A stretch of DNA of 64,000 nt from a bacterium HR24 (GTDB lineage: Bacteria; Chloroflexota; Dehalococcoidia; SM23-28-2; HRBIN24): positions 1,994 to 65,993 of the forward strand of contig BEIA01000001.1 in the NCBI GenBank assembly GCA_002898715.1, in the 5' to 3' direction. Shown here piece by piece: positions 19,321-45,185 of this stretch. A program made the position numbers and the translations under genes. Each line of letters opens with the position of its first letter. Positions within the stretch are counted from its first letter, which is position 1. Below the pieces are notes generated by a model. The model was given only the letters and a program-made list of their open reading frames with translations. It did no database searches and was not told the DNA's origin.

Positions 19321-19519
19321 ACGAACTCCTGCCCTGGCCAGCAATCGATATCCTGGCAATGATAGTACCTGGACTCTCTCACCCTGACAACAGGGATAAC
19401 CTACAACTAACACCGGCCATCTGGGCCGTGGACGGCCTCCCCGTCGCGCACCGTCCCTGAATCCCCTGCCCACCCCTTTCCTGGCAGCGTTCCCTCTCGC
19501 CGTGCTATATTGACGCTTG

Positions 19520-21187
19520 ATGAGTGTGGCATCGCATCGCTCAAAAGCCTCGCCATCCCTGCCCTCCACCCCTGCCCGGCTGGGCCTGTCCGGGTTCTCG
19601 TCCTGGCGGCCCGGGCAGCGGCAGGTCGTGCAGTCCTTCCTCCAGAGCTCCCGGCCCTACGTGATGCTGGAGGCGCCCACGGGGTCGGGCAAGAGCCTCA
19701 TAGCCGTGGCCGCCGCCAGGGCCATGGGGGCGCGCCTCCTGTACGTCGTCTACACCCGCCAGCTGCAGGAGCAGCTGGCGCGGGACTTCCCGGTGGCCGT
19801 CATCATGGGCCGCAACAACTATCCCACCGCCAACCATCCCTCCCTCACAGCCGAGGCGTGCGAGCTGCGGCCCGGCAGGCGTCACTGCCCCCACTGCTGC
19901 AGCCCGCGCCTGCGCTGCAGCGGCCCGACGCCGGGCTGTGATGCCCCCTCCCGCTGCCCCTACCTCCGCGCCCGCGCCCTTGCCGAGGACGCGGATATGG
20001 TCGTCGCCAACGTGGCCTACCTGCTGCACGACCTGGAGGCGGGAGGAGGCCTCGCCACCGGCCGGCAGCTCCTGGTCATCGACGAGGCGGACGAGCTGCC
20101 GTCGGCCCTCGTGCAGCACCTGACGGTCCACATTACGGCCGATGACCTGGACCTGCTGGGGATGGGCCCGCCTCATGACCCCTCCCTGCCCGACGCCTGG
20201 CAGGGGTGGGCAAGCGAGGCCCTCCGTGCCCTCGACGCCGCCTGCGACCGCCTGTCGGAGCTGCTGGAGGCCGACGACGACCCCTTCGAGAGGGCGGGCC
20301 TTGCCCGGGACCTGCATCGCCTGGAGGCGCTGCAGCCCCGCCTCGAGCGGCTCGCGGCAGGAGGCCGTTCCCCCTGGGTGGCGGCCGTGGAGGACCCCCG
20401 CCGGGGCCCCTTCACCCTGCGGCCCCTCTATCCGGCGGCGTACGCGAGGGGGCTCCTGTGGGGCAGGACCGAGGGGCGGGTCCTGCTCATGAGCGCCACC
20501 GTCCTGGACCCCGCCGCCCTTGCCCGTGACCTGGGCCTCCCCGAGGGCTCGTGGGAGCGTCTCTCCCTCCCATCACCTATCCCGCCCGAGCGCCGGCCCG
20601 TGGTCTACATGCCCGTGGCGCCCCTTTCCCACACCAACGCCGCCGACACCTGGCCCCTGGCGGTGCGTGCCCTGGACCGCATCCTGGACCGCCACCGGGG
20701 GGAGCGGGGCATCGTCCATACCCAGAGCTACCGCCTCGCCGCCTACGTCATGTCCCACAGCCGCCACAGGCGCCGCCTGCTGGGCCACGAGGACGCGGCC
20801 GGTCGCAGCCGCGCCCTCCGCCGCCATGCCGAGAGCGAGGACGCAGTCCTCATCTCCCCCTCCATGGAGCGGGGGGTGGACTTCGCCGGCGACCGTGCCC
20901 GCTTCGCTGTGGTCCTCAAGGCCCCCTACCCCAACTTGTCGGACCCGTGGGTGGAGGCCCGCCTCCGGGCGCCCGGCGGCCAGGAGTGGTATGCCCGCGA
21001 GACGGTGCGCGCCCTGGTGCAGGCCTGCGGCCGTGTCTGCCGTGGTCCCGACGATTACGGCGTCACCTACATCCTCGATGCCGGGGTGGGCCGCCTGCTG
21101 GCGCGCCACCGGCGCCTCTTCCCCCAGTGGTTCCTCGCTGCCCTCAGGGAGGCGCCTGACGGTGCGGCACTGCCGGAGGTGATCTAG
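19520..21187 (+). CDS. DinG/Rad3-family ATP-dependent DNA helicase
   Basis: Walker A LEAPTGSGKSL, DEAD/H-like box LLVIDEADEL, Cys-rich insertion (CPHCCSPRLRC...CPY), C-terminal helicase_C_2-like region (QACGRVCRG). Confidence 0.75.
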   Translation: MSVASHRSKASPSLPSTPARLGLSGFSSWRPGQRQVVQSFLQSSRPYVMLEAPTGSGKSLIAVAAARAMGARLLYVVYTRQLQEQLARDFPVAVIMGRNNYPTANHPSLTAEACELRPGRRHCPHCCSPRLRCSGPTPGCDAPSRCPYLRARALAEDADMVVANVAYLLHDLEAGGGLATGRQLLVIDEADELPSALVQHLTVHITADDLDLLGMGPPHDPSLPDAWQGWASEALRALDAACDRLSELLEADDDPFERAGLARDLHRLEALQPRLERLAAGGRSPWVAAVEDPRRGPFTLRPLYPAAYARGLLWGRTEGRVLLMSATVLDPAALARDLGLPEGSWERLSLPSPIPPERRPVVYMPVAPLSHTNAADTWPLAVRALDRILDRHRGERGIVHTQSYRLAAYVMSHSRHRRRLLGHEDAAGRSRALRRHAESEDAVLISPSMERGVDFAGDRARFAVVLKAPYPNLSDPWVEARLRAPGGQEWYARETVRALVQACGRVCRGPDDYGVTYILDAGVGRLLARHRRLFPQWFLAALREAPDGAALPEVI

Positions 21188-21188
21188 C

Positions 21189-22265
21189 ATGCCTGCCGTC
21201 CCATCGCTGCTGCTGGTGGACCCCGACGAGGCTGCTCGCGAGGAGACGCGTCGCCTCCTGTCGGTGGCCGGCCTAGCGGTGGTAGCCCATGCCGGCTACG
21301 GGCCCGAGGCCGTGCGGCTCCTGCAGGAGATGCGCCCCGATGCCGTCGTCATGGCGGCAAGGGGCATGCCGCAGCGGGTGGAGGCGATGCTGGAGCGCCT
21401 GCGCCGGGCGGCGCCGGATGTCCCCGTCCTCCTCTACGGCATGCCGTCCTTCGCGGGCCGCGCCATGGCCCTTGGCGCCCGCTCCTGCCTGCCCGACCGC
21501 CCGGGGGATGCCCTGGTGGAGGCCGTGCGCTCCGTTCTGGCGGCGGAAGGGCGCCTCCGCAGCGCCGACGGCGCCCTCCCCGCAGGCGGCGCCGTCCTCG
21601 CCGTCGTGTCGGCCCGTGGCGGCGTGGGCAAGACGACGGTGGCCGCCGGCCTTGCTGCCGCCTTCCACGCGCGGCTGGAGCTCTCGGCCGTCCTCATCGA
21701 CTGCGACCCCTACGGCGGCGCTGCCGCCCTCTTGCCCCACGACCGAGGGGCGCCGGCCGTCCTGCCGCCGTCGGCCCTCGAAGAGGCGCAGCGGCTGGCG
21801 GGCGCCCACGACTGGGTGGTAGTGGACACGGCTGCCGGCCTGCGGGAGGAGGCGCTGCGCGCCCTCGAGCTCTGCGACCTGGCCCTGCTGGTGACGACCC
21901 CGGAGGTGGGGGCCCTCAGGGAGCACGGCCGCGCCATCAGGCAGCTCGCCGACTGGGGCTTCCCGCCGGACCGCCTCCTGGCGGTCCTGGACCGCACCCA
22001 CCCCTCCCATACGGCACCGGCGGCGGAGGTTGCCCGCGCCCTGGACTGGGAGGTGGTCGCCGACATCCCCTACGACCGGCGGCTGCGACGCCTGGCGGGA
22101 GAGGGCGTGACGCCGGTGCTGGCCGCCCCCTCCTCGCCGGCCGCCCGCTCCCTCCTCCGGCTGGCCGCCCGGCTGGCGGGCGTGGGCGACCCTTCCCGCC
22201 GGCGCCGCCTGAGCCTGCCGCCCCTCCTGGCTGCCCTCCTGCGGCGCCGGGGCGGCGCTGTGTGA
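21189..22265 (+). CDS. cpaE: CpaE/TadZ-like pilus-assembly protein (receiver-like N-domain + ParA/MinD-type ATPase)
   Basis: Deviant Walker A VVSARGGVGKTTVAAGLAAA, MinD/ParA-like core, N-terminal pseudo-receiver; heads a cpaF-tadB-tadC operon. Confidence 0.7.
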   Translation: MPAVPSLLLVDPDEAAREETRRLLSVAGLAVVAHAGYGPEAVRLLQEMRPDAVVMAARGMPQRVEAMLERLRRAAPDVPVLLYGMPSFAGRAMALGARSCLPDRPGDALVEAVRSVLAAEGRLRSADGALPAGGAVLAVVSARGGVGKTTVAAGLAAAFHARLELSAVLIDCDPYGGAAALLPHDRGAPAVLPPSALEEAQRLAGAHDWVVVDTAAGLREEALRALELCDLALLVTTPEVGALREHGRAIRQLADWGFPPDRLLAVLDRTHPSHTAPAAEVARALDWEVVADIPYDRRLRRLAGEGVTPVLAAPSSPAARSLLRLAARLAGVGDPSRRRRLSLPPLLAALLRRRGGAV

Positions 22266-22323
22266 GAAAGGCGTCATATGTCACGTCTAACGCATGCTAT
22301 AATGCCTCCCGTAGCGGAGCGAG

Positions 22324-23757
22324 GTGACGCCGAGCATGCCCACAGGATGGCGCCGTCCTGAGCGGCCGCCGCCGGGCCAGCCTGCGCGCTTGCCCCCCAT
22401 GGCTCCCCCGGTGCGGGCGCCCGAGCCCTCCGGGGGCGCCGGATCGGAGCCGGCCGGGCCGCCAGCCCTCCCTCCCGACCTGGAAGAGGCGGCCCTCGCC
22501 ATATATGACGCCCTGCTGCGCGACCTGGACACGGCCCGCCTGGGCCGCCTCTCTCCCGAGGAGGCCGCCGCAGCAGCCAGGGAGGCGGCCAGGCGTGAGG
22601 TAGAGGCGCGCCACCCCGACCTCTCGTCCCCCCTCCAGGAACGGCTCATAGAGAGGGCCCTCTGGGAGGTGGTGGGGCTGGGACCCCTGGAGCCGCTCCT
22701 GCGGGACCCGACCGTCACCGAGGTGATGGTCAACTCGCCCGTCGAGGTGTTCGTGGAGCGCGGCGGCCGCCTCCTCCGCGTCCCCGTGCGCTTCCGGGAC
22801 GGGGAGCACATCATGCGCATCGTCCAGCGCATCCTCGCCCCCCTCGGCCGCCACGTGGACGAGGCGTCGCCCATGGTGGACGCCCGGCTGCCCGACGGCT
22901 CCCGCGTCAACGTCATCATCCCTCCCCTGTGCCCCCGCAGCCCGGCCGTCACTATCCGCCGCTTCCGCTCGGAGCCGTTCTCCCTGGACGACCTGGTGGG
23001 CCTCGGCAGCCTGCCTGCCCCCCTTGCCGCCTTCCTGGCAGCTGCCGTGCAGGCCAAGACGAACATCCTCATCTCCGGCGGCACGGGATCGGGCAAGACG
23101 ACGCTCCTTGCCGCCCTGGCGGGGCACATCCCCGGCGACGAGCGCGTCATCACCATCGAGGACCCCATCGAGCTCCGCCTCAAGCGGGAGCACCTCCTGC
23201 AGCTGGAGGCGCGACCGCCGGGCATCGAGGGGCGGGGGGAGGTAACACAGCGCGACCTCCTGCGCAACGCCCTGCGCATGCGCCCCGACCGCATCATCGT
23301 CGGCGAGGTGCGCGGCCCCGAGGCGTTCGACATGCTCAACGCCATGAACACCGGCCACGAGGGCTCCCTCTCCACCATCCACGCCAACTCGGTGGACGAC
23401 GCGCTGCACCGCCTGGAGAACATGGTCCTCATGGCCGGGTTCGACCTCCCCCTCAGGGCAGTGCGGGAACAGGTGGCGTCGGCCCTGCACCTGGTGGTCC
23501 AGGTGTCGCGCCTGCCCGACGGCCGCCGGCGCGTCGTCCAGGTGATGGAGGTCCTGGGCATGGAGGGCGACCAGGTGTCGCGCCAGGAGCTGTACCGCTG
23601 GCGCCAGATGGGGGTGGACCCATCGGGCCAGGTCGTAGGCCGCGACGAGGTAGCCCCCCTGCGGCCCCGCCTGGCCGACCGCCTGGAGGCGGCGGGGTTG
23701 GCCGACGCGGTGCGCTCCCTCATGGCCATGGCCGAGGAGGTGGCATCCTGGCGCTAG
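22324..23757 (+). CDS. cpaF: CpaF/TadA-family secretion ATPase (type II/IV secretion NTPase)
   Basis: Walker A ILISGGTGSGKTTLL, Asp box and His box (IIVGEVRGPEAFDMLNAMNTGHEGSLSTIHANS); T2SSE-family core. Confidence 0.85.
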   Translation: MTPSMPTGWRRPERPPPGQPARLPPMAPPVRAPEPSGGAGSEPAGPPALPPDLEEAALAIYDALLRDLDTARLGRLSPEEAAAAAREAARREVEARHPDLSSPLQERLIERALWEVVGLGPLEPLLRDPTVTEVMVNSPVEVFVERGGRLLRVPVRFRDGEHIMRIVQRILAPLGRHVDEASPMVDARLPDGSRVNVIIPPLCPRSPAVTIRRFRSEPFSLDDLVGLGSLPAPLAAFLAAAVQAKTNILISGGTGSGKTTLLAALAGHIPGDERVITIEDPIELRLKREHLLQLEARPPGIEGRGEVTQRDLLRNALRMRPDRIIVGEVRGPEAFDMLNAMNTGHEGSLSTIHANSVDDALHRLENMVLMAGFDLPLRAVREQVASALHLVVQVSRLPDGRRRVVQVMEVLGMEGDQVSRQELYRWRQMGVDPSGQVVGRDEVAPLRPRLADRLEAAGLADAVRSLMAMAEEVASWR

Positions 23758-24644
23758 CGGCAGCCTTGCTCGCCGGCATCGCCGTCTTCCTGGCCCTCCT
23801 GCCCCCGCCCGGCCCGACCCTTGCCGAGCTGGTGCGCGGCGACCTGCCGCACCGCCGGTCGCGGCCCCGGCCGGTGCCGCTGCGCCGCCGCCGAGAGGCC
23901 ATCCTGGACCGCCGGCTGGCACAGGCAGGCATCCCCATGCGGGGCGCCGCCTTCCGGGCCCTCTGCATCGGCGCCGGCGCCCTCATCGCTGCCGCCGGCG
24001 CCCTGGCCGGCCTGCCCGTCCCTGCCCTCCTGCCCCTGCCCCTGGCGACCCTGCTCCTTGGGAGCGCCATCGTCGCCATGCGTGCCGACCGTGCCTGCGG
24101 CCGCATGGAGGCTGCCCTGGTGGGAGCCCTGCCGTCCCTGGTCGCCTCGCTGCGGGCAGGGGTGGGCATCGAGCTCGCCCTGGCCGAGCTCGCCTCGCGG
24201 GCGGCACCGCCCCTGCGTGAGGAGCTGGAGGGCGTCCTCGCCCAGGTCCGCCTGGGCCTCCCCCTCCCTCAGGCGCTGGAGGAGATGGCAGCCCGCTGGC
24301 CCCTGCCGCCGGTGCGCACCCTGGCCATGGCCGTCGCCCTCCAGCGGGAGACGGGCGGCCCCCTCGCCGAGGTGCTGCAGGTGGCCGAGGAGGGGATCCG
24401 CAGCCGGCACGAGCTGCTGGGAGAGGTACGCTCCCTCACCGCCCAGCAGCGGCTCACGGCCTACCTGCTGCTGGCCCTGCCCTTCGCCGTCATGGGCGGG
24501 GTATCCCTCTTCTCGCCCGACTATGCCTCCCGCCTCTTCCTCACCACCGCCGGCCGCCTCATGCTCACCGGCGCCATCCTCCTCCAGGCGGTGGGCTACT
24601 TCTTCATGCGCTCCTTCATGAGGGTGGAGGTATACGGTGGCTAA
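23748..24644 (+). CDS. tadB: TadB-like inner-membrane platform protein (T2SS-F domain)
   Basis: C-terminal ~300 aa of ORF 22929-24644: TM helices plus the T2SSF-type cytoplasmic domain (LPLPQALEEMAARWPLPPVRTLAMAVALQRETGGPLAEVL); 5' end uncertain (no clean ATG; possible CTG/TTG start after GAGGAGG). Confidence 0.6.
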   Translation: MALAAALLAGIAVFLALLPPPGPTLAELVRGDLPHRRSRPRPVPLRRRREAILDRRLAQAGIPMRGAAFRALCIGAGALIAAAGALAGLPVPALLPLPLATLLLGSAIVAMRADRACGRMEAALVGALPSLVASLRAGVGIELALAELASRAAPPLREELEGVLAQVRLGLPLPQALEEMAARWPLPPVRTLAMAVALQRETGGPLAEVLQVAEEGIRSRHELLGEVRSLTAQQRLTAYLLLALPFAVMGGVSLFSPDYASRLFLTTAGRLMLTGAILLQAVGYFFMRSFMRVEVYGG

Positions 24645-25467
24645 CATCGCTGCCGTCCTGGCAGGGCTTGCCGTCGTCCTCCTCCTCTGGCCTCAGGAGA
24701 CGACGGCCGCGAGGGGGAGCGGCCTCCGCTCTGTGCTCGCCTCGCTGCAGGAGCGGCTGGGCAGCCTCCTCGTGCGCCTCCTCCCCTCGCGTCTCGTGAG
24801 CGCCCTCGCCTTCGACCTGGACCGCTCCGGCCTACCCCTCAACCTGCCGTCCTTCGCCCTCCTCTGGGCTCTCTCGGCCCTTGCCCTGCCGCTTCCGGCC
24901 CTCCTCATGGGGGACGGGGGCCCCCTGTCACGCCTGCTCATCGTCCTCTCCCTGGCAGCAGGCATTGCGGCGCCGCCCTACTGGCTCCGGCTGCGCATAC
25001 GCCACCGCCGGCAGGCTGCCCTGAGCGAACTGCCCCTCTTCCTGGACCTGCTGCGCGTCGCCGTCCAGGCCGGCCAGGGCATCGATGCCGCCCTCGCCCA
25101 CGTGGGCCGCCACCTCTCGGGGCCCCTGGGCGAGGAGGTGCTGCGCCTCCTCCACCGCCTCCGGCTGGGATACGACCGCGAGGAGGCGTACCTAACATTT
25201 GCCCGCCGGCTGGACCTGGAGGAGGCCCATTCCCTCATCTCGGCCATCATGCAGGCCGAGCGCACGGGAGGGGGCCTCGCCCCCGCCCTGGCCTCCCAGG
25301 CCTCCTACCTGCGGGGCCGCCTCCGGCAGCGGGCCCAGGAGGAGGCGCGCCAGGCGCCCATCAAGATGCTCCTGCCCATGGCGTTCTGTCTGCTGCCCGC
25401 GATGATGGTAGTGCTCATGGGACCTGCCGTCCTGGACCTGGTGCAGAGCTTGCGCGGGGCGAGGTGA
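24637..25467 (+). CDS. tadC: TadC-like inner-membrane platform protein (T2SS-F domain)
   Basis: GTG start overlapping the tadB stop; T2SSF-like core (LPLFLDLLRVAVQAGQGIDAALAHV ... AIMQAERTGGGLAPAL) with flanking TM helices. Confidence 0.65.
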   Translation: MANIAAVLAGLAVVLLLWPQETTAARGSGLRSVLASLQERLGSLLVRLLPSRLVSALAFDLDRSGLPLNLPSFALLWALSALALPLPALLMGDGGPLSRLLIVLSLAAGIAAPPYWLRLRIRHRRQAALSELPLFLDLLRVAVQAGQGIDAALAHVGRHLSGPLGEEVLRLLHRLRLGYDREEAYLTFARRLDLEEAHSLISAIMQAERTGGGLAPALASQASYLRGRLRQRAQEEARQAPIKMLLPMAFCLLPAMMVVLMGPAVLDLVQSLRGAR

Positions 25468-25880
25468 TGGCGATGACGGCGCCCTTCCACCCACCTGGCT
25501 GCCGCACGGACGATGCCGCCCCTCGCCTCCCGGCCGTCGTGGACGAGCTCATGGCCCAGTGGCAGGAGACACGCTCGCTTTTGCAGGCAGCGGTGCAGCA
25601 CCTGCGACGGCTCCTCGCCGCCCGGCCCTGGCAGGAGGAGCTGGAGCGCCTCCGCCGCCGCGTGGAGGCGCTGGAGCGGGAGCGCGATGCCCTCTGGCAG
25701 GAGGTGTGGCAGCTGCGACGCCGCCTGGAGCAGGAGTCCTCCCTCCTGTCCCTGCCCCAGCGGCTGGCCCTGGCCAGGGACGAGCTGGCGACCCTGCAGC
25801 AGGAGCTGCACCGGCTATCGCGCGCCATCGAGCGCGCCTCGGCCGCCATCGAGGAGGCCGGCCCGGAGGAGGAGGTGTGA
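25464..25880 (+). CDS. Coiled-coil protein (hypothetical)
   Basis: Heptad-rich, Arg/Glu/Leu-rich sequence (ELERLRRRVEALERERDALWQEVWQLRRRLEQE); stop-start overlap with tadC. Confidence 0.4.
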   Translation: MMAMTAPFHPPGCRTDDAAPRLPAVVDELMAQWQETRSLLQAAVQHLRRLLAARPWQEELERLRRRVEALERERDALWQEVWQLRRRLEQESSLLSLPQRLALARDELATLQQELHRLSRAIERASAAIEEAGPEEEV

Positions 25881-25899
25881 GGCCCTGATCCTGCCCTGT

Positions 25900-26568
25900 A
25901 TGGAGCATCGCCAAGGCCGTAGCGCCCACCTGTACGCCTGGCGCCACTGGCAGGCGCCGGACCCGCACGACCTGGCCTGGCGCGTCTTCTTCGGCGCCCT
26001 GCGCATGCCGGTGGAGTACCGGGTGGGACACCTGCGCCTGGCCTGCGTATGGCGTGGCCACCCGCCCGATGCCTCCTGCTACACCGTCACCTGGTTCTGG
26101 CTGCCCTCCCTTGCCAAGGGGTGGCTCGTCCTCCCGCCCCTTCCTGTGGAGGAGCCCATCGGTTATGCCCTCACCCCGGTCACGAGCCTCGCCCGGCTCA
26201 TAGGTGCCCCCCTCTACATAGCCACCATGCCGCCTGCCCTGAGCTCGTCCTGGTCCGACCTGTGCGGCCGCTGCCCTTCGCTGCCGGACGACTACGAGGG
26301 CTACTACGTGGTCTACCCCGATCTGGGCTGGGACCATTTCCAGCAGTGGTGCCAGTGCCCATCATGTGGCGCCATCGATGTCCAATTCGAGGCGAGGGCC
26401 GCCCGCAACTGCGGCTGCCGGCCCGACGACGACCGGGGCCATAACGCGCACACGCTTGCCCTTTGTGGCGCCTATCAGGCTGCCCAGGCCTGCCTGCGGG
26501 ACCAGCCGCTCTATGCGGTCTCGCGCCTGTGGCGGGAGCTGTGCGCTCCGGACAGGGCGTGGAGGTGA
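25900..26568 (+). CDS. Cys-rich hypothetical protein
   Basis: Start MEHRQG; multiple CxxC-like pairs (CQCPSCG, CGCRPDDD, CGRCPSLPDDYEGYY); no recognisable fold. Confidence 0.4.
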   Translation: MEHRQGRSAHLYAWRHWQAPDPHDLAWRVFFGALRMPVEYRVGHLRLACVWRGHPPDASCYTVTWFWLPSLAKGWLVLPPLPVEEPIGYALTPVTSLARLIGAPLYIATMPPALSSSWSDLCGRCPSLPDDYEGYYVVYPDLGWDHFQQWCQCPSCGAIDVQFEARAARNCGCRPDDDRGHNAHTLALCGAYQAAQACLRDQPLYAVSRLWRELCAPDRAWR

Positions 26569-26575
26569 TGACCCG

Positions 26576-27451
26576 ATGGTGATGCCCATCGACCTGTCCC
26601 TGCATCAGGACGGCCCGGCTGCTCCGGAGGTCTACCGGGAGGCCGCGGTCCCGGCGGACGCCGCCGTGCCGCTGCCGTACGCCCTGCACGCCGTCGTCCC
26701 TGGCGACACCCTATGGGATATCGCCCGTCGCTACGGCACGTCCCTGCGCTGGCTCGTCCTCTCCAATCCCGACGTCGCGCCACACCCCGACCTCATCCGG
26801 CCGGGCCAGCAGCTGCTCGTGCCGCTGGGCGACGGGCTCGTCCACCGCCTGGCGCCGGGCGAGACGGTGGAGCAGGTGGCTGCCGCCTACGGCCTCGATG
26901 CCGCCGCCGTCCTCGCCCACCCCCTGAACCGGGGCGGCCTCCTCCCTTTCGCCCACGGCATCCTCTTCGTGCCCTCGCCCCGGTCGGTCGACGACCGGCA
27001 GCCGTCTGCCCCCTGGCACAGGGACCGGGTGCTGGGGGCCGTGCCTGCAGATGATGGCCTGCCCAGGGGCACGCCCCTCATAGGTCCCATCACATCCCTC
27101 TTCGGCGAGATGGCGCCCGAGCTCCGCTCCGGTCCCCACACGGGCATCGACATCGCTGCCCCGGCCGGCACGCCCGTCGTGGCCACCGCGTCCGGCGCCG
27201 TCGCCTTGGTCGCGTACGATGACGGCGGCTATGGGCTGTACGTGGTTATCGACCACGCCGGCCGCTATTCCACCCTGTACGCCCATCTGGGACAAGCAGC
27301 CGTCCGGCCCGGCCAGAGGGTGGAGCGGGGGCAGGTGATCGGCCGCGTGGGCACGAGCGGCCGCTCTACCGGCCCCCACCTGCACTACGAGGTCCGCCTG
27401 GCGGGCCGGCCCATTGACCCGCTGCTGACGCCGCGCGAGGGTGGGCCGTGA
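26576..27451 (+). CDS. Peptidoglycan hydrolase: two LysM repeats + M23 (LytM) metallo-endopeptidase
   Basis: LysM HAVVPGDTLWDIARRYGTSLRWLVLSNPDV and HRLAPGETVEQVAAAYGLDAAAVLAHP; M23 motifs HTGIDIAAPAGTPVVA, GRVGTSGRSTGPHLHYEV; GGAGGTG RBS. Confidence 0.8.
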   Translation: MVMPIDLSLHQDGPAAPEVYREAAVPADAAVPLPYALHAVVPGDTLWDIARRYGTSLRWLVLSNPDVAPHPDLIRPGQQLLVPLGDGLVHRLAPGETVEQVAAAYGLDAAAVLAHPLNRGGLLPFAHGILFVPSPRSVDDRQPSAPWHRDRVLGAVPADDGLPRGTPLIGPITSLFGEMAPELRSGPHTGIDIAAPAGTPVVATASGAVALVAYDDGGYGLYVVIDHAGRYSTLYAHLGQAAVRPGQRVERGQVIGRVGTSGRSTGPHLHYEVRLAGRPIDPLLTPREGGP

Positions 27452-29034
27452 TGGCGAGACGCAAGACTCCCCCCACACCTGTAGAGCTGCCGCCCCTCAC
27501 CGACGAGCAGGAGGCGGTGGTGGACGCCGTCCTGCAGGGACAGGACCTGAAGGTCCAGGCCTTCGCCGGCAGCGGCAAGACCACCACGCTCCTTGCCGTT
27601 GCCCGCGCCTACCTGGAGAGGCATCCCGAGGCACGGGTCCTCTATGTCACCTTCAACAACCGCCTCCTCAAGGAGGCCAAGGCCCGCTTCGAGGCCCTGG
27701 ACGCCTCCCTGCCGGGGGCAGGCAAGCGCCGCATCTATGCCTTCACCAACCACGGCCTGGCGTTCCACCACCTGGGCTGGCGCTACAGCGACCGGCTCCT
27801 CTCCGGGGGGTCCCTCCTCCAGGTGCGGCATGCCCTGCTGGAGCGCCTGCCCAGCCTGGGCGACTTCCGGCCCCTCCTCTACCCCGAGGATGCGGCCATC
27901 ATCGTCCTCGAGGCCCTCACCCGCTACATGTACTCGGCCGACGCCCGGCCCGGGCGGGAGCATCTGCCGGAGCTGCTGCCCTACGTCCTGGACGACCCCA
28001 TCTACGAGCCGGTGGTACGTGCCCTTGTTGCCCTGATGTGGCAGGCATGGCAGCTCCTCTCCGCCCCAGGGGAGCTGTCCGACCTGCCCATCATCCACGA
28101 CGTTTACCTCAAGACCTTCCAGCTCATGTCGCCCCGCCTCAACTACGACCTCATACTGCTCGATGAGGCGCAGGACGCCAACCCCGCCATGCTGGACATC
28201 ATTCTGCGTCAGCCGGCCCAGAAGGTGTGCGTGGGGGACGCCTACCAGCAGATCTACGCCTGGCGCGGGGCCGTCAACGCCATGGCATCGCTCCCCTGGC
28301 CGTCATACCCCCTCACCACCTCCTGGCGCTTCGGCGACGCCATCGCCGCCTACGCGTCCCGCCTCCTGCAGACCTTCCTGGGCGAAGAGGCTGCCATCAG
28401 GGGGGCGCCGGGCAAGACGTCGTCCATCGGCCCCCTCGCCGCCGCCGATGCCGTCATCGCCCGCACCAACGTGGGCGCCCTGCGCGAGCTGCTCATGCTC
28501 CTCCAGAAGGGAAGCAGGGTGGCCTTCGCCGGGCCCCTTGCCGACCTGACCGACGCCCTCATGGCCGCCTACCGCCTCTGGCGGGGCTACAGGCCTGCCC
28601 ACCCCGAGTTCGCGGTCTTCCGGAGCTGGGACCAGCTGCTGGCCCTCATGCAGCGCCTGCCGGCCGTCGCCAACCAGTACCGCCCCTACGTCAACATGGT
28701 GGAGGAGTTCCGGGACGAGGTCCCACGCATCTGCCAGACTGTACGCTCCCTGGTGGCCGTCGACGCCGGGGGCACCCGCCACTCGTGGGACGTGACCGTC
28801 TCCACCGCTCACCGCGCCAAGGGCCGTGAGTGGCGCCGGGTCCGCCTGGCGGCCGACTGGGCTGCCTTCTACCTCGTGGCCTTCGACGGGACCGTCAACG
28901 CCGAGGAGGTCAACGTGGCCTACGTGGCCGCCACGCGGGCGGCCGAGGCCCTCGACCCGGGAGGGCTCGACGAGGCAGTCGAGAGGGCGGCGGGCATGCT
29001 GGGCGAGGCGGCCACCGTCTACCCCTTCTCCTGA
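27451..29034 (+). CDS. Superfamily-1 DNA helicase (UvrD/Rep/PcrA-like, short form)
   Basis: Walker A VQAFAGSGKTTTLLAV; LILLDEAQDANP; UvrD_C-like WRFGDAIAAYASRLL and STAHRAKGREW; no relaxase domain. Confidence 0.75.
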   Translation: MARRKTPPTPVELPPLTDEQEAVVDAVLQGQDLKVQAFAGSGKTTTLLAVARAYLERHPEARVLYVTFNNRLLKEAKARFEALDASLPGAGKRRIYAFTNHGLAFHHLGWRYSDRLLSGGSLLQVRHALLERLPSLGDFRPLLYPEDAAIIVLEALTRYMYSADARPGREHLPELLPYVLDDPIYEPVVRALVALMWQAWQLLSAPGELSDLPIIHDVYLKTFQLMSPRLNYDLILLDEAQDANPAMLDIILRQPAQKVCVGDAYQQIYAWRGAVNAMASLPWPSYPLTTSWRFGDAIAAYASRLLQTFLGEEAAIRGAPGKTSSIGPLAAADAVIARTNVGALRELLMLLQKGSRVAFAGPLADLTDALMAAYRLWRGYRPAHPEFAVFRSWDQLLALMQRLPAVANQYRPYVNMVEEFRDEVPRICQTVRSLVAVDAGGTRHSWDVTVSTAHRAKGREWRRVRLAADWAAFYLVAFDGTVNAEEVNVAYVAATRAAEALDPGGLDEAVERAAGMLGEAATVYPFS

Positions 29035-29054: not shown

Positions 29055-30797
29055 CTACCCGTCGCCCGCCTCCCCATCGGGCCACAGGCCCGCAAAGAGG
29101 CCCCCTCGCCTTTCTCCGCCCACCTCGCGCCACACCTGCCCCAGGGCCCCCCTCGACTCGAGGGCGAGCATGTTGGTGGTCCGCACTGCCGGCAGCATGC
29201 CGCCGGGCATCACCTCCGTGGCCGCCCGGGCGATGGCCTCCTCGCGCGTCCCGTCGGGCGCCACCACCAGCAGCAGCGGCCAGTATAGGGGGCGACCGTA
29301 CCTCAGCAGGTGGCGGTAGTACCCCACGTACCCCCTCAGCTTCTGCCGCCAGCGGCCGTCGCCGGCGGTGCCCCGGTCCCACTCCAGCAGCAGGTGCACC
29401 ATCCTGCCCCCTATGACCACCGCCGCCGAAGCGTCGGGCACCAGCCGCCGCACGCGCCCATCCTCGGCGAACTCACGCGCCGTCAGGGGTGCCTCCCGCA
29501 GGGCCGCCACCCGTCCCCCAACGGCCCTCACCTCGCGGGCAAGCCTCGCGAGAAAGGCCCGCAGCTCCAGCTGGTGGGGCAGGAAGGACGGCGCCGGGAA
29601 GACCCGCTTGGCGCCTATGGGGATGCCCAGCAGCCGGCGTCCCAGCCGCTCCCCCTCGCCGGTGGCGGTCCACCTGCCCTCCACTTCCCTCGCAAGCCCC
29701 TCCCGCTCCATCGCCTCCAGCACCCGCCCCGCCTCCTCCGGCGTCGTGTCCGCCAGGGCAGCAACCTCGGCGGCGGTGCTGCCGGGGTGCCTGAGCAGCG
29801 CCGCCAGCACCCGCCTCCGCCCGGCGCCGGGAGGCATGGTGGGCGACCTCTCGCCACTCCCCGGCGGCGTCCAGGGCGGCAGGGCCGGCGCCCTCGCCTG
29901 GCGGAACGGCAGGGGCAAGGAGAGGGGCGCCTGGCCCAGACGGTGGAGGGTCGCATATAGCCGGCCCGTTCCCCTCCCCTCCACCCTGGTCCACAGCGCC
30001 TCCCAGGGACGAGAGAGGGCGCCGGCCGTGGCCATGTAGACCGGCGGCGCAGGCACACCCCTCCGGCCCCGGGAGGCAGAAAGGTACATGTCCCACTGGT
30101 CCATCTCCTCGTAGCTCGGCGTCACCAGCAGGAGCATGGCGCCGGCCATGACCGGCATCTCGGCCAGGAGACGCGTCCAGGCGCGGGCAAGGGCCTGGCG
30201 CTGCCTTGCCGGCCGCTCTTGCCTGTCCACCAGCACGAAGATGGGGGTGCACCAGTCCTCCCCCACCAGCACGACGATGCCCTGCGCGCCGGCGAAGGCT
30301 GCCCCCTCGACGCCCTGCCGGAGGCGGCACGCCTCCGCCACCGTCAGGCCCCGCTCGCGAGCGCCCCGCGCCAGCCTGGAGATGATGCGGGCGGCGGCGA
30401 GCGCGCCCGTCCCGTCCCACAGCAGGGCCTGCAGCCGCTGCGTCGCCAGCGGCAGGGCCTCCATCTGCACCCCCGCCGCCTCATAGGCCGCCAGCACCCC
30501 TTGGGATGGCAGCCACACCCGCACCACGTCCTCCCGCCCGGTGGAGACCATCTCCTCTCGTGCCCATCCCCTCCTGGCGAGCCTCTGCAGGGCAGCCTCC
30601 ACGTCGGGCAAGGCCATGCCCAGCAGGTCTGCCAGGTGCTCGGCCGCCGCCGCCGGGAGGCGCACCGTGCCCGCCAGCACACGCCGGTCATAGCGCTCCC
30701 AGGGCTTGAGACGTTCTAGGTCTGATGGCGCCGTGGGGGCGTCCATAACCGTCCCGGCGCCCCCACGGGAGTCCCCGTCCGACAGGACTGCTCTCAT
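29055..30797 (-). CDS. Replication-relaxation (Replic_Relax) family protein with two wHTH-like repeats
   Basis: 580 aa; N- and C-halves both carry a winged-helix-like segment followed by a similar conserved block (LVTPSYEEMDQW... / LLVVAPDGTREEA...), as in Replic_Relax proteins of actinomycete conjugative plasmids; co-directional with the T4SS genes. Confidence 0.5.
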   Translation of the reverse strand: MRAVLSDGDSRGGAGTVMDAPTAPSDLERLKPWERYDRRVLAGTVRLPAAAAEHLADLLGMALPDVEAALQRLARRGWAREEMVSTGREDVVRVWLPSQGVLAAYEAAGVQMEALPLATQRLQALLWDGTGALAAARIISRLARGARERGLTVAEACRLRQGVEGAAFAGAQGIVVLVGEDWCTPIFVLVDRQERPARQRQALARAWTRLLAEMPVMAGAMLLLVTPSYEEMDQWDMYLSASRGRRGVPAPPVYMATAGALSRPWEALWTRVEGRGTGRLYATLHRLGQAPLSLPLPFRQARAPALPPWTPPGSGERSPTMPPGAGRRRVLAALLRHPGSTAAEVAALADTTPEEAGRVLEAMEREGLAREVEGRWTATGEGERLGRRLLGIPIGAKRVFPAPSFLPHQLELRAFLARLAREVRAVGGRVAALREAPLTAREFAEDGRVRRLVPDASAAVVIGGRMVHLLLEWDRGTAGDGRWRQKLRGYVGYYRHLLRYGRPLYWPLLLVVAPDGTREEAIARAATEVMPGGMLPAVRTTNMLALESRGALGQVWREVGGERRGGLFAGLWPDGEAGDG

Positions 30798-31225
30798 CTC
30801 CCCTCCCCCTCGTCCTCCGGCCCCACGACGACGAAGGCCAGCCGCTCGCTGCAGTAGCCGCAGTACCTCTGCTGCGGCGGCCTATCGGGGTCGAACTCCC
30901 GCACCTCGACAATGACGGGCGTCGCCCCTGCCCCTTCGACGGCGCGGCGGCAGCTCTCGCAGAGGTCGCGCCGGGCCACTATCCGCGCCGGCCCGTGCGG
31001 GCAGCAGATGCCTGCCTCCTCCCAGCGCAGCAGCATCTCCAGCCGGCACCGGTCCGGCTCCCCGTCCAGGTCGGCGAAGGCACGAGCGCAATACTCCTCC
31101 AGCTCCCGCACCCACTCCTCCATGCCGTCCTCGTCCCGGCGCACCAGCGCCGCCAGGTCGTAGGCAGGCAGCCGCTCCCCCACCCGGTAGTGCCTGTCCA
31201 GCACGGCTATGACCTTCGTCTCCAA
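30794..31225 (-). CDS. Hypothetical zinc-finger-like protein
   Basis: 143 aa with CCPHGP...CESCRR and CGYCSERL cysteine pairs; stop/start overlap with neighbours. Confidence 0.4.
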   Translation of the reverse strand: METKVIAVLDRHYRVGERLPAYDLAALVRRDEDGMEEWVRELEEYCARAFADLDGEPDRCRLEMLLRWEEAGICCPHGPARIVARRDLCESCRRAVEGAGATPVIVEVREFDPDRPPQQRYCGYCSERLAFVVVGPEDEGEGR

Positions 31226-33922: not shown

Positions 33923-34854
33923 GTCCTCCCTCCCTGTGTCTCCAGCGCTGCCACGGCCAAGCGGTCTATGACGGCCGCCACCTCCTCGCCCCCCCAGAGC
34001 CAAGTGTGGAGGCCGCGCAGGCGCGAGCGGCGCATGCGCAGCCACCAGCGCGCCTGGGCTGCCGACAGGGCCCCATGGCCGGCAGCGCCGCCGCCGTACC
34101 GCCTGGCCCAGCGCCGCAGGAGCGGCCTTCTCGCCCAGACGCATGCTATGGCCGTCAGGAGCAAGGCCGGCACGGCTGCAGCAGGGCATGCCCAGAGGAA
34201 GGCGCTTGCCGGCAGCGTGGCTATGATGGGCGCCGCCGACAGGCCCACCACCAACAAAGCTAAGGCCGGCCGCCACTCATCGGTGGTCGCCCACATGGCC
34301 GGCCCCAGCCGCAGGGCATCGACCGCCTCCGGGGCCATCGCCTGGGCGCTGCCTGCCAGGACGAGCACGGTCCCGGCCAGCACCGTGACGCCCGCCGCCG
34401 CCCTCAAGGCCCGCCCCTCCGCCGGGACGGCCCAGGGCATGGCCACCACCTCCAGGAGGGTGCCTGCCGGAAGGCGTGGCCTGCCGGTGATGGTCCAGTG
34501 CGAGAGCCGCCACCAGAGGCGCCACCAGCCGACGGCCCCGGCCCACACCAGAAGGGGGACCGCCGCCCGGACCGGAAGGGATGCCGCGGCCGGCAACCTG
34601 GCGCCGATGACCTCGCCCGCCGCAAGGGGGGCGGCCAGGAAGAACAGGGCGAGCCCGGCCGCCCGTTGCAGCGCCGGGCCGTCCCAGCTCGCCTGCAGGC
34701 CCTGCCATGCCACCTGCGAGGCGCCCGGGCCGAGGAGGACGGACGCGGCTGCGACCGCGGCGACGGCCCCCAGGCGCCAGGCGGCCCTTCCCCGGCCGCC
34801 GCTCCTGCCGGGCGCCGCCCCGCCCGTTCCCACTTGGCCTCTCCCCGTCCTCAT
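33919..34854 (-). CDS. Polytopic membrane protein (conjugation-associated)
   Basis: Repeated hydrophobic helices (LALFFLAAPLAAGEVIG, AVPLLVWAGAVGWWRLWW, LALLVVGLSAAPIIATL, AVPALLLTAIACVWA); 4-nt overlap with the coupling-protein start; start taken at MRTGRG. Confidence 0.5.
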   Translation of the reverse strand: MRTGRGQVGTGGAAPGRSGGRGRAAWRLGAVAAVAAASVLLGPGASQVAWQGLQASWDGPALQRAAGLALFFLAAPLAAGEVIGARLPAAASLPVRAAVPLLVWAGAVGWWRLWWRLSHWTITGRPRLPAGTLLEVVAMPWAVPAEGRALRAAAGVTVLAGTVLVLAGSAQAMAPEAVDALRLGPAMWATTDEWRPALALLVVGLSAAPIIATLPASAFLWACPAAAVPALLLTAIACVWARRPLLRRWARRYGGGAAGHGALSAAQARWWLRMRRSRLRGLHTWLWGGEEVAAVIDRLAVAALETQGGRT

Positions 34855-37370: not shown

Positions 37371-38067
37371 CGCCCTTCACCTGTCCTCTCCCATTGGTGA
37401 GCGCAGGGGTAGCCATGTGCACCGGCAGCAGCTCCGCCGCTATGTCCTGGGGCAGGGGCGCCGACGAGCCCAGAAAGTCGTGCAGGACCTGCACCAGCTC
37501 CTGTCCCGAGAGGCGGCGGCAGGGGATGCCCAGCGAGACGAGGCCGGTCAGCACCTGCTCCACCCTCATCTCCAGCAGGCGCAGGGTGCTCTCCAGCTGC
37601 TCCTCGGCCAGGCGCGCCGCCTCGTCACGTCTCCGAAAGGCCAGAAGGCCCTTGAGGAGCGACGGCGACGGCGCCGCCAGCGGCGGCAAGGGGTCTGCCG
37701 CCACCACCACGTAGATGCGCCGCTCGAGGATGGTCCTCTCCTGGGCCAGGCGGCGTACGAACGCCTCGTGCTCCACCGCCAGCCGCTTGAGGACGGGCGA
37801 CATGAGGAGCCCCTGCCGGGACCGCAGGTGCGCCAGGTAGTCGTCCACCGGCGCCGGCATGCTGCGCACCACGATCTGCAAGGGGAAGGAGAGCGAGTGC
37901 AGGAACGCCCGGAAGGAGGCCACCATCGCCTCCTGCTCGGCCGGAGGCCGGAGCACGAAGTTCACGGGCCTCGCCTCCAGGGCTGCCCTCGCCCTTCCCC
38001 CTTTCAGCACTATGCAGCCCTGACGCACGCCGGCGATGGGCAGGAGCTCCTGTACCGCGCCCGGCAT
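37351..38067 (-). CDS. Hypothetical conjugation protein (possibly VirB4 N-domain-like)
   Basis: Start MPGAVQELL directly after the upstream stop; weak resemblance to the N-terminal domain of the adjacent VirB4 (PVNFVLRPPAEQEAMVASFRAFLHSLSFPLQIVVRS vs VDVSLHIEPLPTGPIVRQLTRKL). Confidence 0.4.
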   Translation of the reverse strand: MPGAVQELLPIAGVRQGCIVLKGGRARAALEARPVNFVLRPPAEQEAMVASFRAFLHSLSFPLQIVVRSMPAPVDDYLAHLRSRQGLLMSPVLKRLAVEHEAFVRRLAQERTILERRIYVVVAADPLPPLAAPSPSLLKGLLAFRRRDEAARLAEEQLESTLRLLEMRVEQVLTGLVSLGIPCRRLSGQELVQVLHDFLGSSAPLPQDIAAELLPVHMATPALTNGRGQVKGDVLRAS

Positions 38068-38069
38068 CG

Positions 38070-40306: not shown

Positions 40307-40330
40307 GGCGCCCTCCCCTCGCCGCTCGCT

Positions 40331-40630: not shown

Positions 40631-40707
40631 GGCCTTCACCTCCTTTCCCTCTCTCTGTCGCGCTACGGACCGTGTGTCCTCCATGGCGGTCGTCACCTCC
40701 CTTGCGT

Positions 40708-41232: not shown

Positions 41233-41235
41233 CCT

Positions 41236-42213: not shown

Positions 42214-42229
42214 TTCCTAGCTGCCCCTG

Positions 42230-45000: not shown

Positions 45001-45185
45001 CCCGTTTCATGTTACACGATTCGACCTCCTACGAAATATGTTACACGTTTGGCTCTGCTGCGGGAGACGCTACATGCAAGACATGACTCTCATCATCGCA
45101 CCATGCTCCCCCTGGTGCCCATTGCCTTCCTCACCAACTGCGCTCGGGAGGCCCCTACCGTTACCGCCCATTACGTCGTGCAGGC

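What the first reader, a model, noticed from the sequence alone, without database searches (positions are those of the whole stretch)
21189..29034. Tad/Flp-like secretion ATPase operon inside the same element, followed by a LysM-M23 peptidase and a UvrD-like helicase
cpaE-cpaF-tadB-tadC are present on the plus strand. No Flp-type pilin or prepilin peptidase was visible among ORFs of at least 60 aa. Immediately downstream are a coiled-coil protein, a Cys-rich protein, a LysM-M23 murein hydrolase and an SF1 helicase. A Tad-like machine plus a wall hydrolase and a helicase next to a VirB4/VirD4 T4SS suggests a second DNA- or protein-translocation apparatus. It could be a DNA-uptake or transfer pilus, or an adhesion pilus aiding mating-pair formation. 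It is unusual for Gram-positive-type ICEs.
Basis: partly seen in the sequence, partly recalled or inferred. Interest (0 to 1): 0.65.

Follow-up and report, generated by a model that had tools for sequence, protein, structure and literature searches.

The report
Pilin-less Tad pilus motor on ICE
A mobile element in a hot-spring Chloroflexota genome carries, as a conserved backbone part beside its DNA-transfer machine, only the motor half of a Tad pilus system with no pilin of its own; it probably builds a mating pilus from the host's pilins, which has not been described for single-membrane bacteria.

Summary
Window 21189-25467 (+) encodes intact CpaE/TadZ, CpaF/TadA, TadB and TadC. They are followed by a coiled-coil protein, a 12-Cys protein, a leaderless LysM-M23 hydrolase and a UvrD-like helicase. 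All of them, together with an upstream DinG-like helicase, form one tightly packed operon (19517-29034). This operon converges on the relaxase/T4CP/VirB4 operon of a monoderm-type ICE in 'bacterium HR24' (Chloroflexota).

The four Tad genes keep the same backbone position in about eight diverged relatives (59-96% identity, dN/dS 0.1-0.66). The genes between TadC and the relaxase vary from element to element.

No Flp, TadE, TadG, CpaB or prepilin peptidase is present in any of these elements, although positive controls were detected. The host lineage has a separate, complete chromosomal locus, flp-tadE-tadG-cpaB-cpaE-cpaF-tadB-tadC. The ICE proteins are 32-61% identical to it.

The best reading is that the ICE carries its own Tad motor and polymerises host-supplied pilins into a mating or aggregation pilus. 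The UvrD-like helicase more likely serves the relaxase. This function is inferred, not shown.

Precedents are the type IVb pili of R64 and PAPI-1 in Gram-negatives, and an annotation-level Tad-like module on Sulfobacillus plasmids. Verdict: a new variant of a known kind, of moderate interest.

The parts
19517..21187 (+). DinG/XPD-family SF2 helicase with a Cys cluster. It is the first gene of the operon, and its stop lies 1 nt before the cpaE start.
   Evidence: Pfam Helicase_C_2/DEAD_2. NCBIfam YoaA/DinG, below cut-offs. PADLOC type IV-A DinG model, 245 bits, but no cas genes nearby. Conserved upstream of the Tad genes in L001, L002, L003, L093, L101 and L102.
21189..22265 (+). CpaE/TadZ-like protein: an atypical receiver domain plus a MinD/ParA ATPase. 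The ICE variant has RGG in place of KGG and a 39-aa deletion.
   Evidence: Pfam. Alignment with chromosomal TadZ. 36-39% identical to the chromosomal homologue and 71-97% within the ICE family.
22324..23757 (+). CpaF/TadA secretion ATPase with Walker A, Asp box, Walker B and His box intact. The true start may be about 25 codons later, as called in L003.
   Evidence: Pfam T2SSE, 234 bits. PDB CpaF 8rjf, 389 bits. dN/dS 0.16-0.26.
23766..24644 (+). TadB inner-membrane platform protein.
   Evidence: Pfam T2SSF, 64 bits. Frame established by GC3. Transmembrane segments.
24637..25467 (+). TadC inner-membrane platform protein.
   Evidence: Pfam T2SSF, 75 bits. The family has only 8 clusters at 61-100% identity, then a gap to 41% or less.
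25464..25880 (+). Soluble coiled-coil protein of 138 aa. It follows TadC in most relatives but not all.
   Evidence: No transmembrane segment and no family match. Homologues in L001, L002, L003, L093, L099, L100 and L101; absent from L006 and L091.
25900..26568 (+). Protein of 222 aa with 12 Cys (CxxC and CxCxxC motifs, zinc-ribbon-like). Accessory.
   Evidence: No Pfam, NCBIfam or PADLOC hit. Found only in close relatives, with fragments in L091 and L100. AlphaFold2 model unusable, pLDDT 34.
26576..27451 (+). LysM-M23 peptidoglycan endopeptidase with no signal peptide or transmembrane segment. It lies in the variable junction.
   Evidence: Pfam M23, 121 bits, and LysM, 45 bits. All orthologues start MVMP with no hydrophobic leader.
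27448..29034 (+). UvrD/PcrA-like SF1 helicase, the last gene of the operon. It is probably the accessory helicase of the relaxase.
   Evidence: Pfam UvrD-helicase/AAA_19. Present in L002, L003, L093 and L101; reduced to a fragment in L091; absent from L006.
29055..30797 (-). Replic_Relax-family relaxase with a winged helix-turn-helix domain. It converges on the Tad operon.
   Evidence: Pfam PF13814. The family has 12 clusters at 56-94% identity.
30794..31225 (-). Conserved 143-aa Cys-containing partner of the relaxase.
   Evidence: Conserved next to the relaxase in L003, L006, L091 and L179.
31253..34276 (-). VirD4-type coupling protein. The real start is probably near 33.9 kb.
   Evidence: Pfam T4SS-DNA_transf/TraG-D_C. 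Frame plot.
35505..38262 (-). VirB4-type ATPase encoded as two ORFs (37351-38262 and 35505-37370).
   Evidence: Pfam P-loop_TraG/AAA_10. The same two-gene arrangement occurs in L179.
39839..43462 (-). Rest of the monoderm-type T4SS: PrgI/VirB3-like; T4SS_pilin/VirB2-like (40331-40627); a 174-aa protein with an N-terminal transmembrane segment; an SLT+M23 hydrolase; and TrbL/VirB6-like.
   Evidence: Pfam.
9076..10296 (-). Tyrosine integrase at the left side of the element.
   Evidence: Pfam Phage_integrase. The order int, 241-aa gene, HTH_17, 360-aa gene is the same in L002 and L093.

Best explanation
This is a backbone module of a small family of integrative conjugative elements of thermophilic Chloroflexota.

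The module is the cytoplasmic and membrane motor of a Tad (type IVc) pilus: the TadZ/CpaE organiser, the CpaF/TadA ATPase and the TadB/TadC platform. It has no fibre subunits, no CpaB and no prepilin peptidase. It is transcribed with the element's helicase genes and lies opposite the relaxase/T4SS operon.

Proposed mechanism (inferred):
1. When the element is activated, its own motor assembles in the donor membrane.
2. The motor extracts host-encoded Flp, TadE and TadG pilins, which the host peptidase has already processed.
3. It polymerises them into a pilus that captures or pulls in recipient cells, or causes cells to aggregate.
4. This helps mating-pair formation for the separate, complete monoderm-type T4SS.

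The LysM-M23 hydrolase, where present, would locally open the cell wall. The UvrD-like helicase works with the Replic_Relax relaxase on the DNA, not with the pilus.
For: - Gene identities and intact motifs.
- A single packed operon with no internal terminators.
- The Tad genes are embedded between the integrase/replication genes and the relaxase/T4CP.
- The same four genes hold the same position in relatives that differ by 20-40% in protein sequence. Examples are L001, L002, L003/L004/L098, L006, L091, L093/L094, L101 and L102. The junction cargo differs between them.
- Purifying selection: dN/dS 0.13-0.66.
- The TadC family and the relaxase family are equally small and co-distributed.
- No pilin, pseudopilin or CpaB is present, while controls were detected.
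- The host HR24 genome has a second CpaF (GBD13265.1). Loci encoding that exact protein carry flp-tadE-tadG-cpaB-cpaE-cpaF-tadB-tadC.
- The T4SS is complete on its own.
- Type IV pili encoded on conjugative elements promote transfer in R64, or are required for it in PAPI-1 (PMC12857230; PMC5297154).
- A distantly related Tad-like module (35-37% identical ATPase) sits on Sulfobacillus conjugative plasmids.
Against: - No experiment or expression data exist for this element.
- ICE TadB and TadC are only 32-40% identical to the host platform proteins, so use of host pilins is not assured.
- It is unclear why an element would duplicate a motor the host already has rather than just induce it.
- ICE CpaE has lost the signature lysine and a 39-aa segment.
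- A host prepilin peptidase was not seen, because only a 64-kb window was available.
- The Sulfobacillus module appears more complete, with a CpaB-like gene and small hydrophobic ORFs. It is therefore not a precedent for the pilin-less state.
Confidence: 0.45

Rival explanations
1. The module is part of the DNA-transfer channel itself. CpaF acts as a VirB11-like third ATPase, with TadB/TadC as its membrane dock. Alternatively it forms a chimeric pilus-machine/T4SS route, as has been proposed for PAPI-1. On this reading the flanking helicases feed DNA to it.
For: - VirB11 is rare outside MPF_T, so monoderm systems lack a third ATPase (PMC4027160).
- CpaF scores 238 bits on the VirB11 model, close to its 250-bit cut-off.
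- Helicases flank the module on both sides.
- The PAPI-1 chimeric model is described.
Against: - The host chromosomal CpaF scores the same on the VirB11 and TIGR03819 models (241 and 344 bits). The resemblance is therefore generic.
- Solved CpaF matches at 389 bits, against 148 bits for VirB11.
- The T4SS here has all the usual monoderm parts.
- UvrD is absent from L006 and L091.
- TadB and TadC are known only as pilin platforms.
Confidence: 0.13
2. The module is cargo that benefits the host rather than transfer. It would provide extra Tad pilus capacity for adhesion or biofilm formation in mats, or a Tad-dependent DNA-uptake (competence) pilus like that of Micrococcus luteus.
For: - Tad loci are the type IV filament systems most often found on plasmids and most often transferred horizontally (PMC6668835).
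- An Arthrobacter plasmid carries a complete Tad locus as cargo.
- Flp-pilus-dependent transformation is known (PMC4322843).
Against: - Cargo Tad loci carry their own pilins; this one never does.
- The module occupies a fixed backbone position and is translationally coupled to a backbone helicase. The true cargo slot next to it varies between elements.
- No ComEC- or ComEA-like gene is present in the window.
Confidence: 0.2
3. The module interferes with the host system. A pilin-less, diverged motor would compete with or rewire the host Tad machine. This could block pilus-dependent phages or incoming elements (exclusion), or force pilus retraction.
For: - The module has a motor but no fibre genes.
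- The ICE TadZ is altered at the signature lysine and has a deletion.
- The element carries other defence genes, including an RM fusion.
Against: - Four intact genes kept under purifying selection are more than interference would need.
- There is no precedent.
- CpaF catalytic motifs are intact.
Confidence: 0.07
4. The module is a decaying remnant of a formerly complete Tad locus captured from a host chromosome.
For: It corresponds exactly to the 3' half (cpaE-cpaF-tadB-tadC) of the chromosomal operon order in Chloroflexota.
Against: - Reading frames and motifs are intact.
- dN/dS is well below 1.
- The module is retained in at least five sublineages that have diverged to 59-82% identity.
Confidence: 0.03

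Closest known systems
Canonical Tad/Flp (type IVc) pilus loci, for example Caulobacter cpa and the chromosomal flp-tadE-tadG-cpaB-cpaE-cpaF-tadB-tadC locus of the host lineage
   Same: The TadZ/CpaE, CpaF/TadA, TadB and TadC genes are homologous and in the same order. The ATPase is closest to the solved CpaF structure.
   Different: There is no Flp, no TadE/F/G pseudopilins, no CpaB and no peptidase. The module sits on an ICE backbone. The platform proteins are only 32-40% identical to the host's. TadZ carries the RGG change and a deletion.
Conjugative type IVb pili of IncI plasmid R64 (thin pilus) and of the ICE PAPI-1
   Same: A type IV filament machine is encoded on a conjugative element beside a separate T4SS. 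It aids contact with the recipient, and in PAPI-1 it is required.
   Different: Those systems are in Gram-negative hosts, belong to the type IVb class and encode their own pilin, peptidase and adhesin. This one is of the Tad class, is in a monoderm-type element and has no pilin.
Sulfobacillus thermotolerans plasmids pL15 and pY0017, and the Kr1 integrated element
   Same: These are monoderm conjugative elements whose backbone combines a MinD-like gene, a CpaF-like ATPase and TadB/TadC-like genes with a relaxase, TraG/VirD4, VirB4, a lytic transglycosylase and ParM. The window also has a ParM-like gene.
   Different: The relationship is distant: ATPase 35-37% and VirB4 28% identical. In pY0017 the module points the same way as the T4SS. 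It is followed by small hydrophobic ORFs and a CpaB-like protein. Its function has never been tested.
Actinobacterial 'helicase/secretion neighbourhood' (NCBIfam TIGR03819 TadA-family conjugal transfer-associated ATPase, and TIGR03815)
   Same: A Tad-like ATPase and a CpaE-like protein are linked to a helicase gene. TIGR03819 is the best NCBIfam hit.
   Different: The score is below the cut-off (338 against 373 bits) and is no better than that of the host's ordinary CpaF. The helicase here is DinG-like, not the DEAH-box type. No TadE-like genes are present.
Ups pili plus the Ced DNA-import system of Sulfolobales (from my own knowledge)
   Same: A type IV pilus mediates cell aggregation, which enables DNA exchange through a separate VirB4/HerA-related machine. 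Tad systems are of archaeal descent.
   Different: That system is archaeal and chromosomal, is induced by UV, imports DNA rather than exporting it, and encodes its own pilins.

Membership tests
Tad/Flp type IVc pilus system | TadA/CpaF-family hexameric ATPase | tested here: met
   Pfam T2SSE, 234 bits. PDB CpaF, 389 bits. Motifs intact.
Tad/Flp type IVc pilus system | Paired TadB and TadC platform proteins (T2SSF) | tested here: met
   PF00482, 64 and 75 bits. Transmembrane segments.
Tad/Flp type IVc pilus system | TadZ/CpaE (atypical receiver plus MinD/ParA) | tested here: met
   Response_reg and ParA/CbiA hits. Aligns with chromosomal TadZ, but has RGG for KGG and a 39-aa deletion.
Tad/Flp type IVc pilus system | Flp prepilin with a G/XXXXEY class III signal, plus TadE/F/G pseudopilins | tested here: not met
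   The regex and phmmer searches found none in the window or in 7 related elements. Flp and TadE were found in controls L007, L008 and L010.
Tad/Flp type IVc pilus system | Prepilin peptidase TadV/CpaA (Peptidase_A24) | tested here: not met
   No A24 hit for any called or multi-transmembrane ORF of the window. No dedicated six-frame HMM search was possible.
Tad/Flp type IVc pilus system | CpaB/RcpC | tested here: not met
   phmmer with Chloroflexota CpaB gave E>0.5.
VirB11 / TrbB T4SS ATPase | Score above the family cut-off and closer to VirB11 than to CpaF | tested here: not met
   TIGR02788 scores 238 bits against a cut-off of 249.95, and the host CpaF scores 241. PDB VirB11 scores 148 bits against 389 for CpaF.
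TIGR03819 helicase/secretion-neighbourhood ATPase | Score above the trusted cut-off; neighbouring DEAH-box helicase and TadE-like genes | tested here: not met
   338 bits against a cut-off of 373.15, and the score does not discriminate. The helicase is of the DinG/YoaA type. No TadE is present.
Monoderm-type (MPF FA/FATA-like) integrative conjugative element | Integrase, relaxase, T4CP, VirB4, VirB6-like, VirB3/PrgI-like and a wall hydrolase, with no VirB7/9/10 | tested here: met
   Pfam hits. Conserved synteny in relatives. The element ends were not found.
Conjugative type IV pilus (R64 thin pilus, PAPI-1) | Element-encoded pilus shown to promote or be required for transfer | not testable with these tools
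   This needs mating assays. Only the gene linkage is shown here.
Type IV-A CRISPR-Cas (DinG/Csf4) | csf1-3,5 genes and a CRISPR array next to DinG | tested here: not met
   The DinG model matches at 245 bits. No Cas hits were found in neighbouring genes and no array was found.

The most novel reading that the evidence does not exclude
A monoderm conjugative element has taken over the motor half of its host's Tad operon as a conjugation-specific pilus engine that runs on host-encoded pilins. This would be the first type IV-pilus-assisted conjugation in single-membrane bacteria, and the first 'motor-only' pilus module that parasitises a resident fibre system. The leaderless LysM-M23 hydrolase might be exported by the same machine.
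Probability: 0.3. Interest if true: 0.75.

Novelty: new variant of a known kind. Interest (0 to 1): 0.5.

Why it matters
Conjugation in single-membrane bacteria is thought to rely on surface adhesins rather than pili. The accessory type IV pili of conjugative elements are known only from Gram-negative plasmids and ICEs. A Tad motor that is conserved on the backbone of a Chloroflexota ICE family and has no pilin would extend pilus-assisted mating to monoderm lineages. It would also show a new form of dependence, in which a mobile element brings the engine and borrows the fibre from its host. This may bear on how genes spread in hot-spring mats. An independent, distant parallel on Sulfobacillus plasmids suggests the solution may recur, and those organisms are culturable and could be used to test it.

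Tried and rejected
- Pilin searches. A class-III signal regex (two versions) and phmmer with Chloroflexota and Arthrobacter Flp, TadE, TadG and CpaB were run against six-frame ORFs of the window and of L001-L006, L091, L093 and L094. Only noise came back (E>0.1), while controls were positive.
- The NCBIfam label 'conjugal transfer-associated ATPase' (TIGR03819) and the near-cut-off VirB11 score were rejected as evidence. The host's ordinary CpaF scores the same.
- A type IV-A CRISPR reading of the DinG-like helicase was rejected. There are no cas genes and no array.
- The scan of genome contigs with CpaF found no close ICE-type relative, best 57-61%. The scan of viral contigs with TadC found nothing.
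- The search for att direct repeats, or for a tRNA-Arg 3' duplicate that would mark the element ends, found nothing convincing.
- The AlphaFold2 model of the Cys-rich protein was unusable (pLDDT 34), so no fold search was run.
- The promoter/terminator scan was uninformative in this 72% GC DNA, beyond showing no internal terminators.
- tblastn of CpaF against plasmids returned mainly proteobacterial megaplasmids with ordinary Tad loci.
- L178, a relaxase homologue with no neighbouring T4CP or Tad genes, looks like a decayed element and says nothing either way.

Full report
**Source and setting.** The window is about 72% GC. Exact-sequence look-ups place it in the metagenome-assembled genome 'bacterium HR24', annotated as Chloroflexota (GBD12026-GBD12040). 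Because spurious ORFs abound at this GC content, genes were called from third-position GC and then named with Pfam, NCBIfam and PADLOC.

The left end of the window is chromosomal: hrcA-grpE-dnaK-dnaJ, tRNA-Arg and an IscA-like gene. From about 9 kb it is an integrative conjugative element, laid out as follows.
- A tyrosine integrase, an HTH_17 protein and an AAA_25 replication-type ATPase.
- Two small Sm/Hfq-like proteins.
- An inserted restriction-modification fusion gene.
- The operon in question.
- On the opposite strand: a Replic_Relax relaxase, a 143-aa partner protein, a VirD4-type coupling protein and VirB4 (as two ORFs).
- Also on the opposite strand: a PrgI/VirB3-like protein, a VirB2-like T4SS_pilin, an SLT+M23 hydrolase, a TrbL/VirB6-like protein and an actin-like ParM.

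**Check of the observation.**
- 21189-22265 encodes a receiver-domain plus MinD/ParA protein, the TadZ/CpaE architecture.
- 22324-23757 encodes a CpaF/TadA ATPase. It scores 234 bits on T2SSE, and all nucleotide-binding motifs are readable in the translation. Its closest solved relatives are Caulobacter CpaF structures at 389 bits, against 148 bits for VirB11.
- 23766-24644 and 24637-25467 encode TadB and TadC, each with a T2SSF domain.
- The mechanically listed ORF 23821-24621 is the wrong frame. TadB lies in the frame of ORF 22929-24644.

Downstream come a soluble coiled-coil protein (25464-25880) and a 222-aa protein with 12 cysteines and no family match (25900-26568). Then come a LysM-M23 endopeptidase whose real start is 26576 and a UvrD-like SF1 helicase (27448-29034).

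The DinG-like helicase gene upstream (19517-21187) ends 1 nt before cpaE. The other junctions are overlaps or gaps of 20 nt or less, with one gap of 58 nt. No terminator-like site lies inside. I therefore read 19517-29034 as one operon of nine genes. It meets the relaxase operon head-on, with 20 bp between the two stop codons. The Tad genes are thus not co-transcribed with the T4SS.

**No fibre genes.** I searched all six-frame ORFs of at least 25 aa in two ways. One was a pair of class-III signal patterns. The other was phmmer, using Flp, TadE, TadG and CpaB from Chloroflexota chromosomal loci and from an Arthrobacter plasmid as queries. The window and seven related elements gave only noise. 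The same searches recovered Flp and TadE in all three control loci. No Peptidase_A24 match was obtained for any membrane ORF. The only pilin-like gene is the VirB2-type T4SS_pilin inside the T4SS cluster.

**The module belongs to the element and is conserved with it.** Homologues of CpaF at 75-96% identity and of TadC at 61-95% all sit in the same context. That context is integrase, HTH_17 and replication genes; then the DinG-like helicase, sometimes followed by a 128-133-aa Cys protein; then CpaE, CpaF, TadB and TadC.

In three separately diverged lineages the next conserved block is the convergent relaxase, 143-aa protein and coupling protein. These lineages are the window with L003/L004/L098, then L006, then L091 with L179.

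What lies between TadC and the relaxase varies.
- Coiled-coil protein, Cys protein, LysM-M23 and UvrD in the window's lineage.
- Coiled-coil protein, LysM-M23, UvrD and a HEPN/nucleotidyltransferase pair in L002 and L093.
- An M23 domain alone in L001.
- A Cys-protein fragment, a UvrD fragment, and CalY-like, haemolysin-type and S24 genes in L091.
- Nothing recognisable in L006.

They are frequent neighbours of the Tad machine, not obligate parts of it.

The TadC family stops abruptly: eight clusters at 61-100% identity, then nothing above 41%. The same gap appears in the metagenome scan. The relaxase family is equally small. Pairwise dN/dS values for the Tad genes are 0.13-0.66.

**Relation to the host's own Tad system.** The next-best CpaF relatives (55-63% identity) are ordinary chromosomal genes of Chloroflexota. 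Their loci read flp-tadE-tadG-cpaB-cpaE-cpaF-tadB-tadC, flanked by housekeeping genes.

HR24 itself has such a second CpaF (GBD13265.1). Contigs encoding that exact protein carry the full locus, including a Flp with the sequence GQALTEYGLIL. The host lineage therefore supplies everything the ICE module lacks.

The ICE copy corresponds to the 3' half of that operon but has diverged from it. Identities are 61% for CpaF, 36-39% for CpaE, 32-36% for TadB and 36-40% for TadC. ICE CpaE also has RGG in place of the MinD-type KGG and lacks a 39-residue segment. Both changes are conserved within the ICE family.

**Mechanism.** Three things are shown. The element carries a selected, intact Tad motor without fibre genes. 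The motor sits at a fixed backbone position. The host encodes the missing parts.

The rest is inferred. On activation, the element would use its own motor to polymerise host pilins into a pilus. That pilus would bring donors and recipients together for the separate, complete T4SS. This is the role type IVb pili play for R64 and PAPI-1. I put this at about 0.45.

The UvrD-like helicase lies next to a relaxase that has no helicase domain, and it is lost along with other junction genes in some relatives. By analogy with PcrA-dependent elements (my own knowledge), it is best read as a DNA-processing helper.

The LysM-M23 enzyme is a second wall hydrolase, in addition to the SLT+M23 enzyme of the T4SS. 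Oddly, it has no signal peptide or membrane anchor in any orthologue. Its export route is unexplained.

**Rivals.**
- A VirB11-like or chimeric-channel role (0.13) is weakened by the control. The host's ordinary CpaF scores the same as the ICE protein on the VirB11 and TIGR03819 models, so those hits are generic. The T4SS also lacks nothing.
- A host-benefit cargo role in adhesion or DNA uptake (0.20) fits the known mobility of Tad loci. However, cargo loci bring their own pilins, and this module is not in the variable slot.
- Interference with the host pilus (0.07) and decay (0.03) fit the selection data poorly.

**Comparison with what is known.** By membership tests the four proteins are members of the Tad motor families. 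The locus as a whole fails the definition of a Tad pilus system, because it lacks a pilin, pseudopilins, a peptidase and CpaB. It is not VirB11, not a member of TIGR03819, and not a type IV-A CRISPR DinG locus.

The nearest described thing is the backbone of Sulfobacillus thermotolerans plasmids pL15 and pY0017. It was annotated as combining 'T4SS and T2SS' homologues (PMC6803676). I inspected pY0017.
- Its ATPase is only 35-37% identical to the ICE and host CpaFs.
- The module points the same way as the T4SS.
- It is followed by small hydrophobic ORFs and a CpaB-like protein.

It therefore looks like an independent and more complete recruitment. A December 2025 review of T4SS diversity discusses pilus-T4SS partnerships only for R64 and PAPI-1 and never mentions Tad.

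**Verdict.** This is a new variant of a known kind, namely accessory type IV filament machinery on a conjugative element. It is distinguished by the Tad class, the monoderm-type element and the consistent absence of fibre genes. Interest is moderate (0.5). The pilin-less, host-dependent design is unusual, but the host is uncultured, the family is small and no functional data exist.

Noticed in passing
window 43740-45450: An actin-like ParM/ALP gene lies at 43927-45000 (-) (PF17989, 65 bits), with a 102-aa ORF downstream. Two 97-nt direct repeats lie upstream at 45183-45279 and 45354-45450. Together they look like a parMRC-type partition locus on the ICE. The region is only about 61% GC, and my GC3 filter missed it.
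   Followed up: partly
window 26576-27451 and orthologues in L002, L003, L100: The LysM-M23 peptidoglycan hydrolase next to the Tad genes has no signal peptide or transmembrane segment in any orthologue; all start MVMP. The SLT+M23 hydrolase of the T4SS does have a membrane anchor. The export route of the LysM-M23 enzyme is unexplained.
   Followed up: partly
window 21189-22265: The ICE-type CpaE/TadZ has RGG in place of the MinD-type KGG signature lysine. It also lacks about 39 residues after the Walker A region compared with chromosomal TadZ. Both changes are conserved across the ICE family.
   Followed up: partly
window 50253-50319, 53835-53901, 59041-59107: Three copies of a 67-nt sequence (75-84% identical) end in a Shine-Dalgarno-like GGAGG and a start codon. 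Each lies directly upstream of a + strand gene: the 411-aa coiled-coil protein, the MoxR-like ATPase and a 240-aa membrane protein. This may be a shared leader or regulatory element.
   Followed up: no
window 47403-48242 and 59100-59822: Two paralogous three-transmembrane proteins, 75-88% identical at the DNA level over about 700 nt, lie 11.6 kb apart. They have no family match.
   Followed up: no
window 19517-21187: The DinG-like helicase matches the PADLOC type IV-A CRISPR DinG (Csf4) model over its full length (245 bits). No csf genes or CRISPR array are nearby.
   Followed up: yes
window 15730-16213: Two small Sm/Hfq-like ORFs (83 and 57 aa; Hfq Pfam hit of 21 bits, below the cut-off) are conserved in the replication-side module of the ICE family, including L001 and L003.
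   Followed up: partly
window 16603-19569: A single-polypeptide HsdR_N + N6-methyltransferase + specificity-domain restriction-modification gene has a lower GC content (62-65%). It is inserted on the opposite strand, just upstream of the helicase/Tad operon. It is present only in the window's closest relatives (L003, L004, L098).
   Followed up: partly
window 7937-8773: An IS110-family transposase abuts the integrase side of the element, next to the conserved 69-aa ORF at 8770-8979. It may obscure the left attachment site. No att repeats were found.
   Followed up: partly
window 46178-46714: A DUF192 (COG1430) gene sits alone in a gene-poor stretch (45-47 kb) with mixed GC content, to the right of the T4SS.
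   Followed up: no
L097 (pY0017) 21304-26639: On the Sulfobacillus plasmid, the Tad-like ATPase/TadB/TadC genes are followed by several small hydrophobic ORFs and a protein with CpaB-like features (an N-terminal transmembrane segment and a SAF-like motif). That module may therefore encode its own fibre parts.
   Followed up: partly
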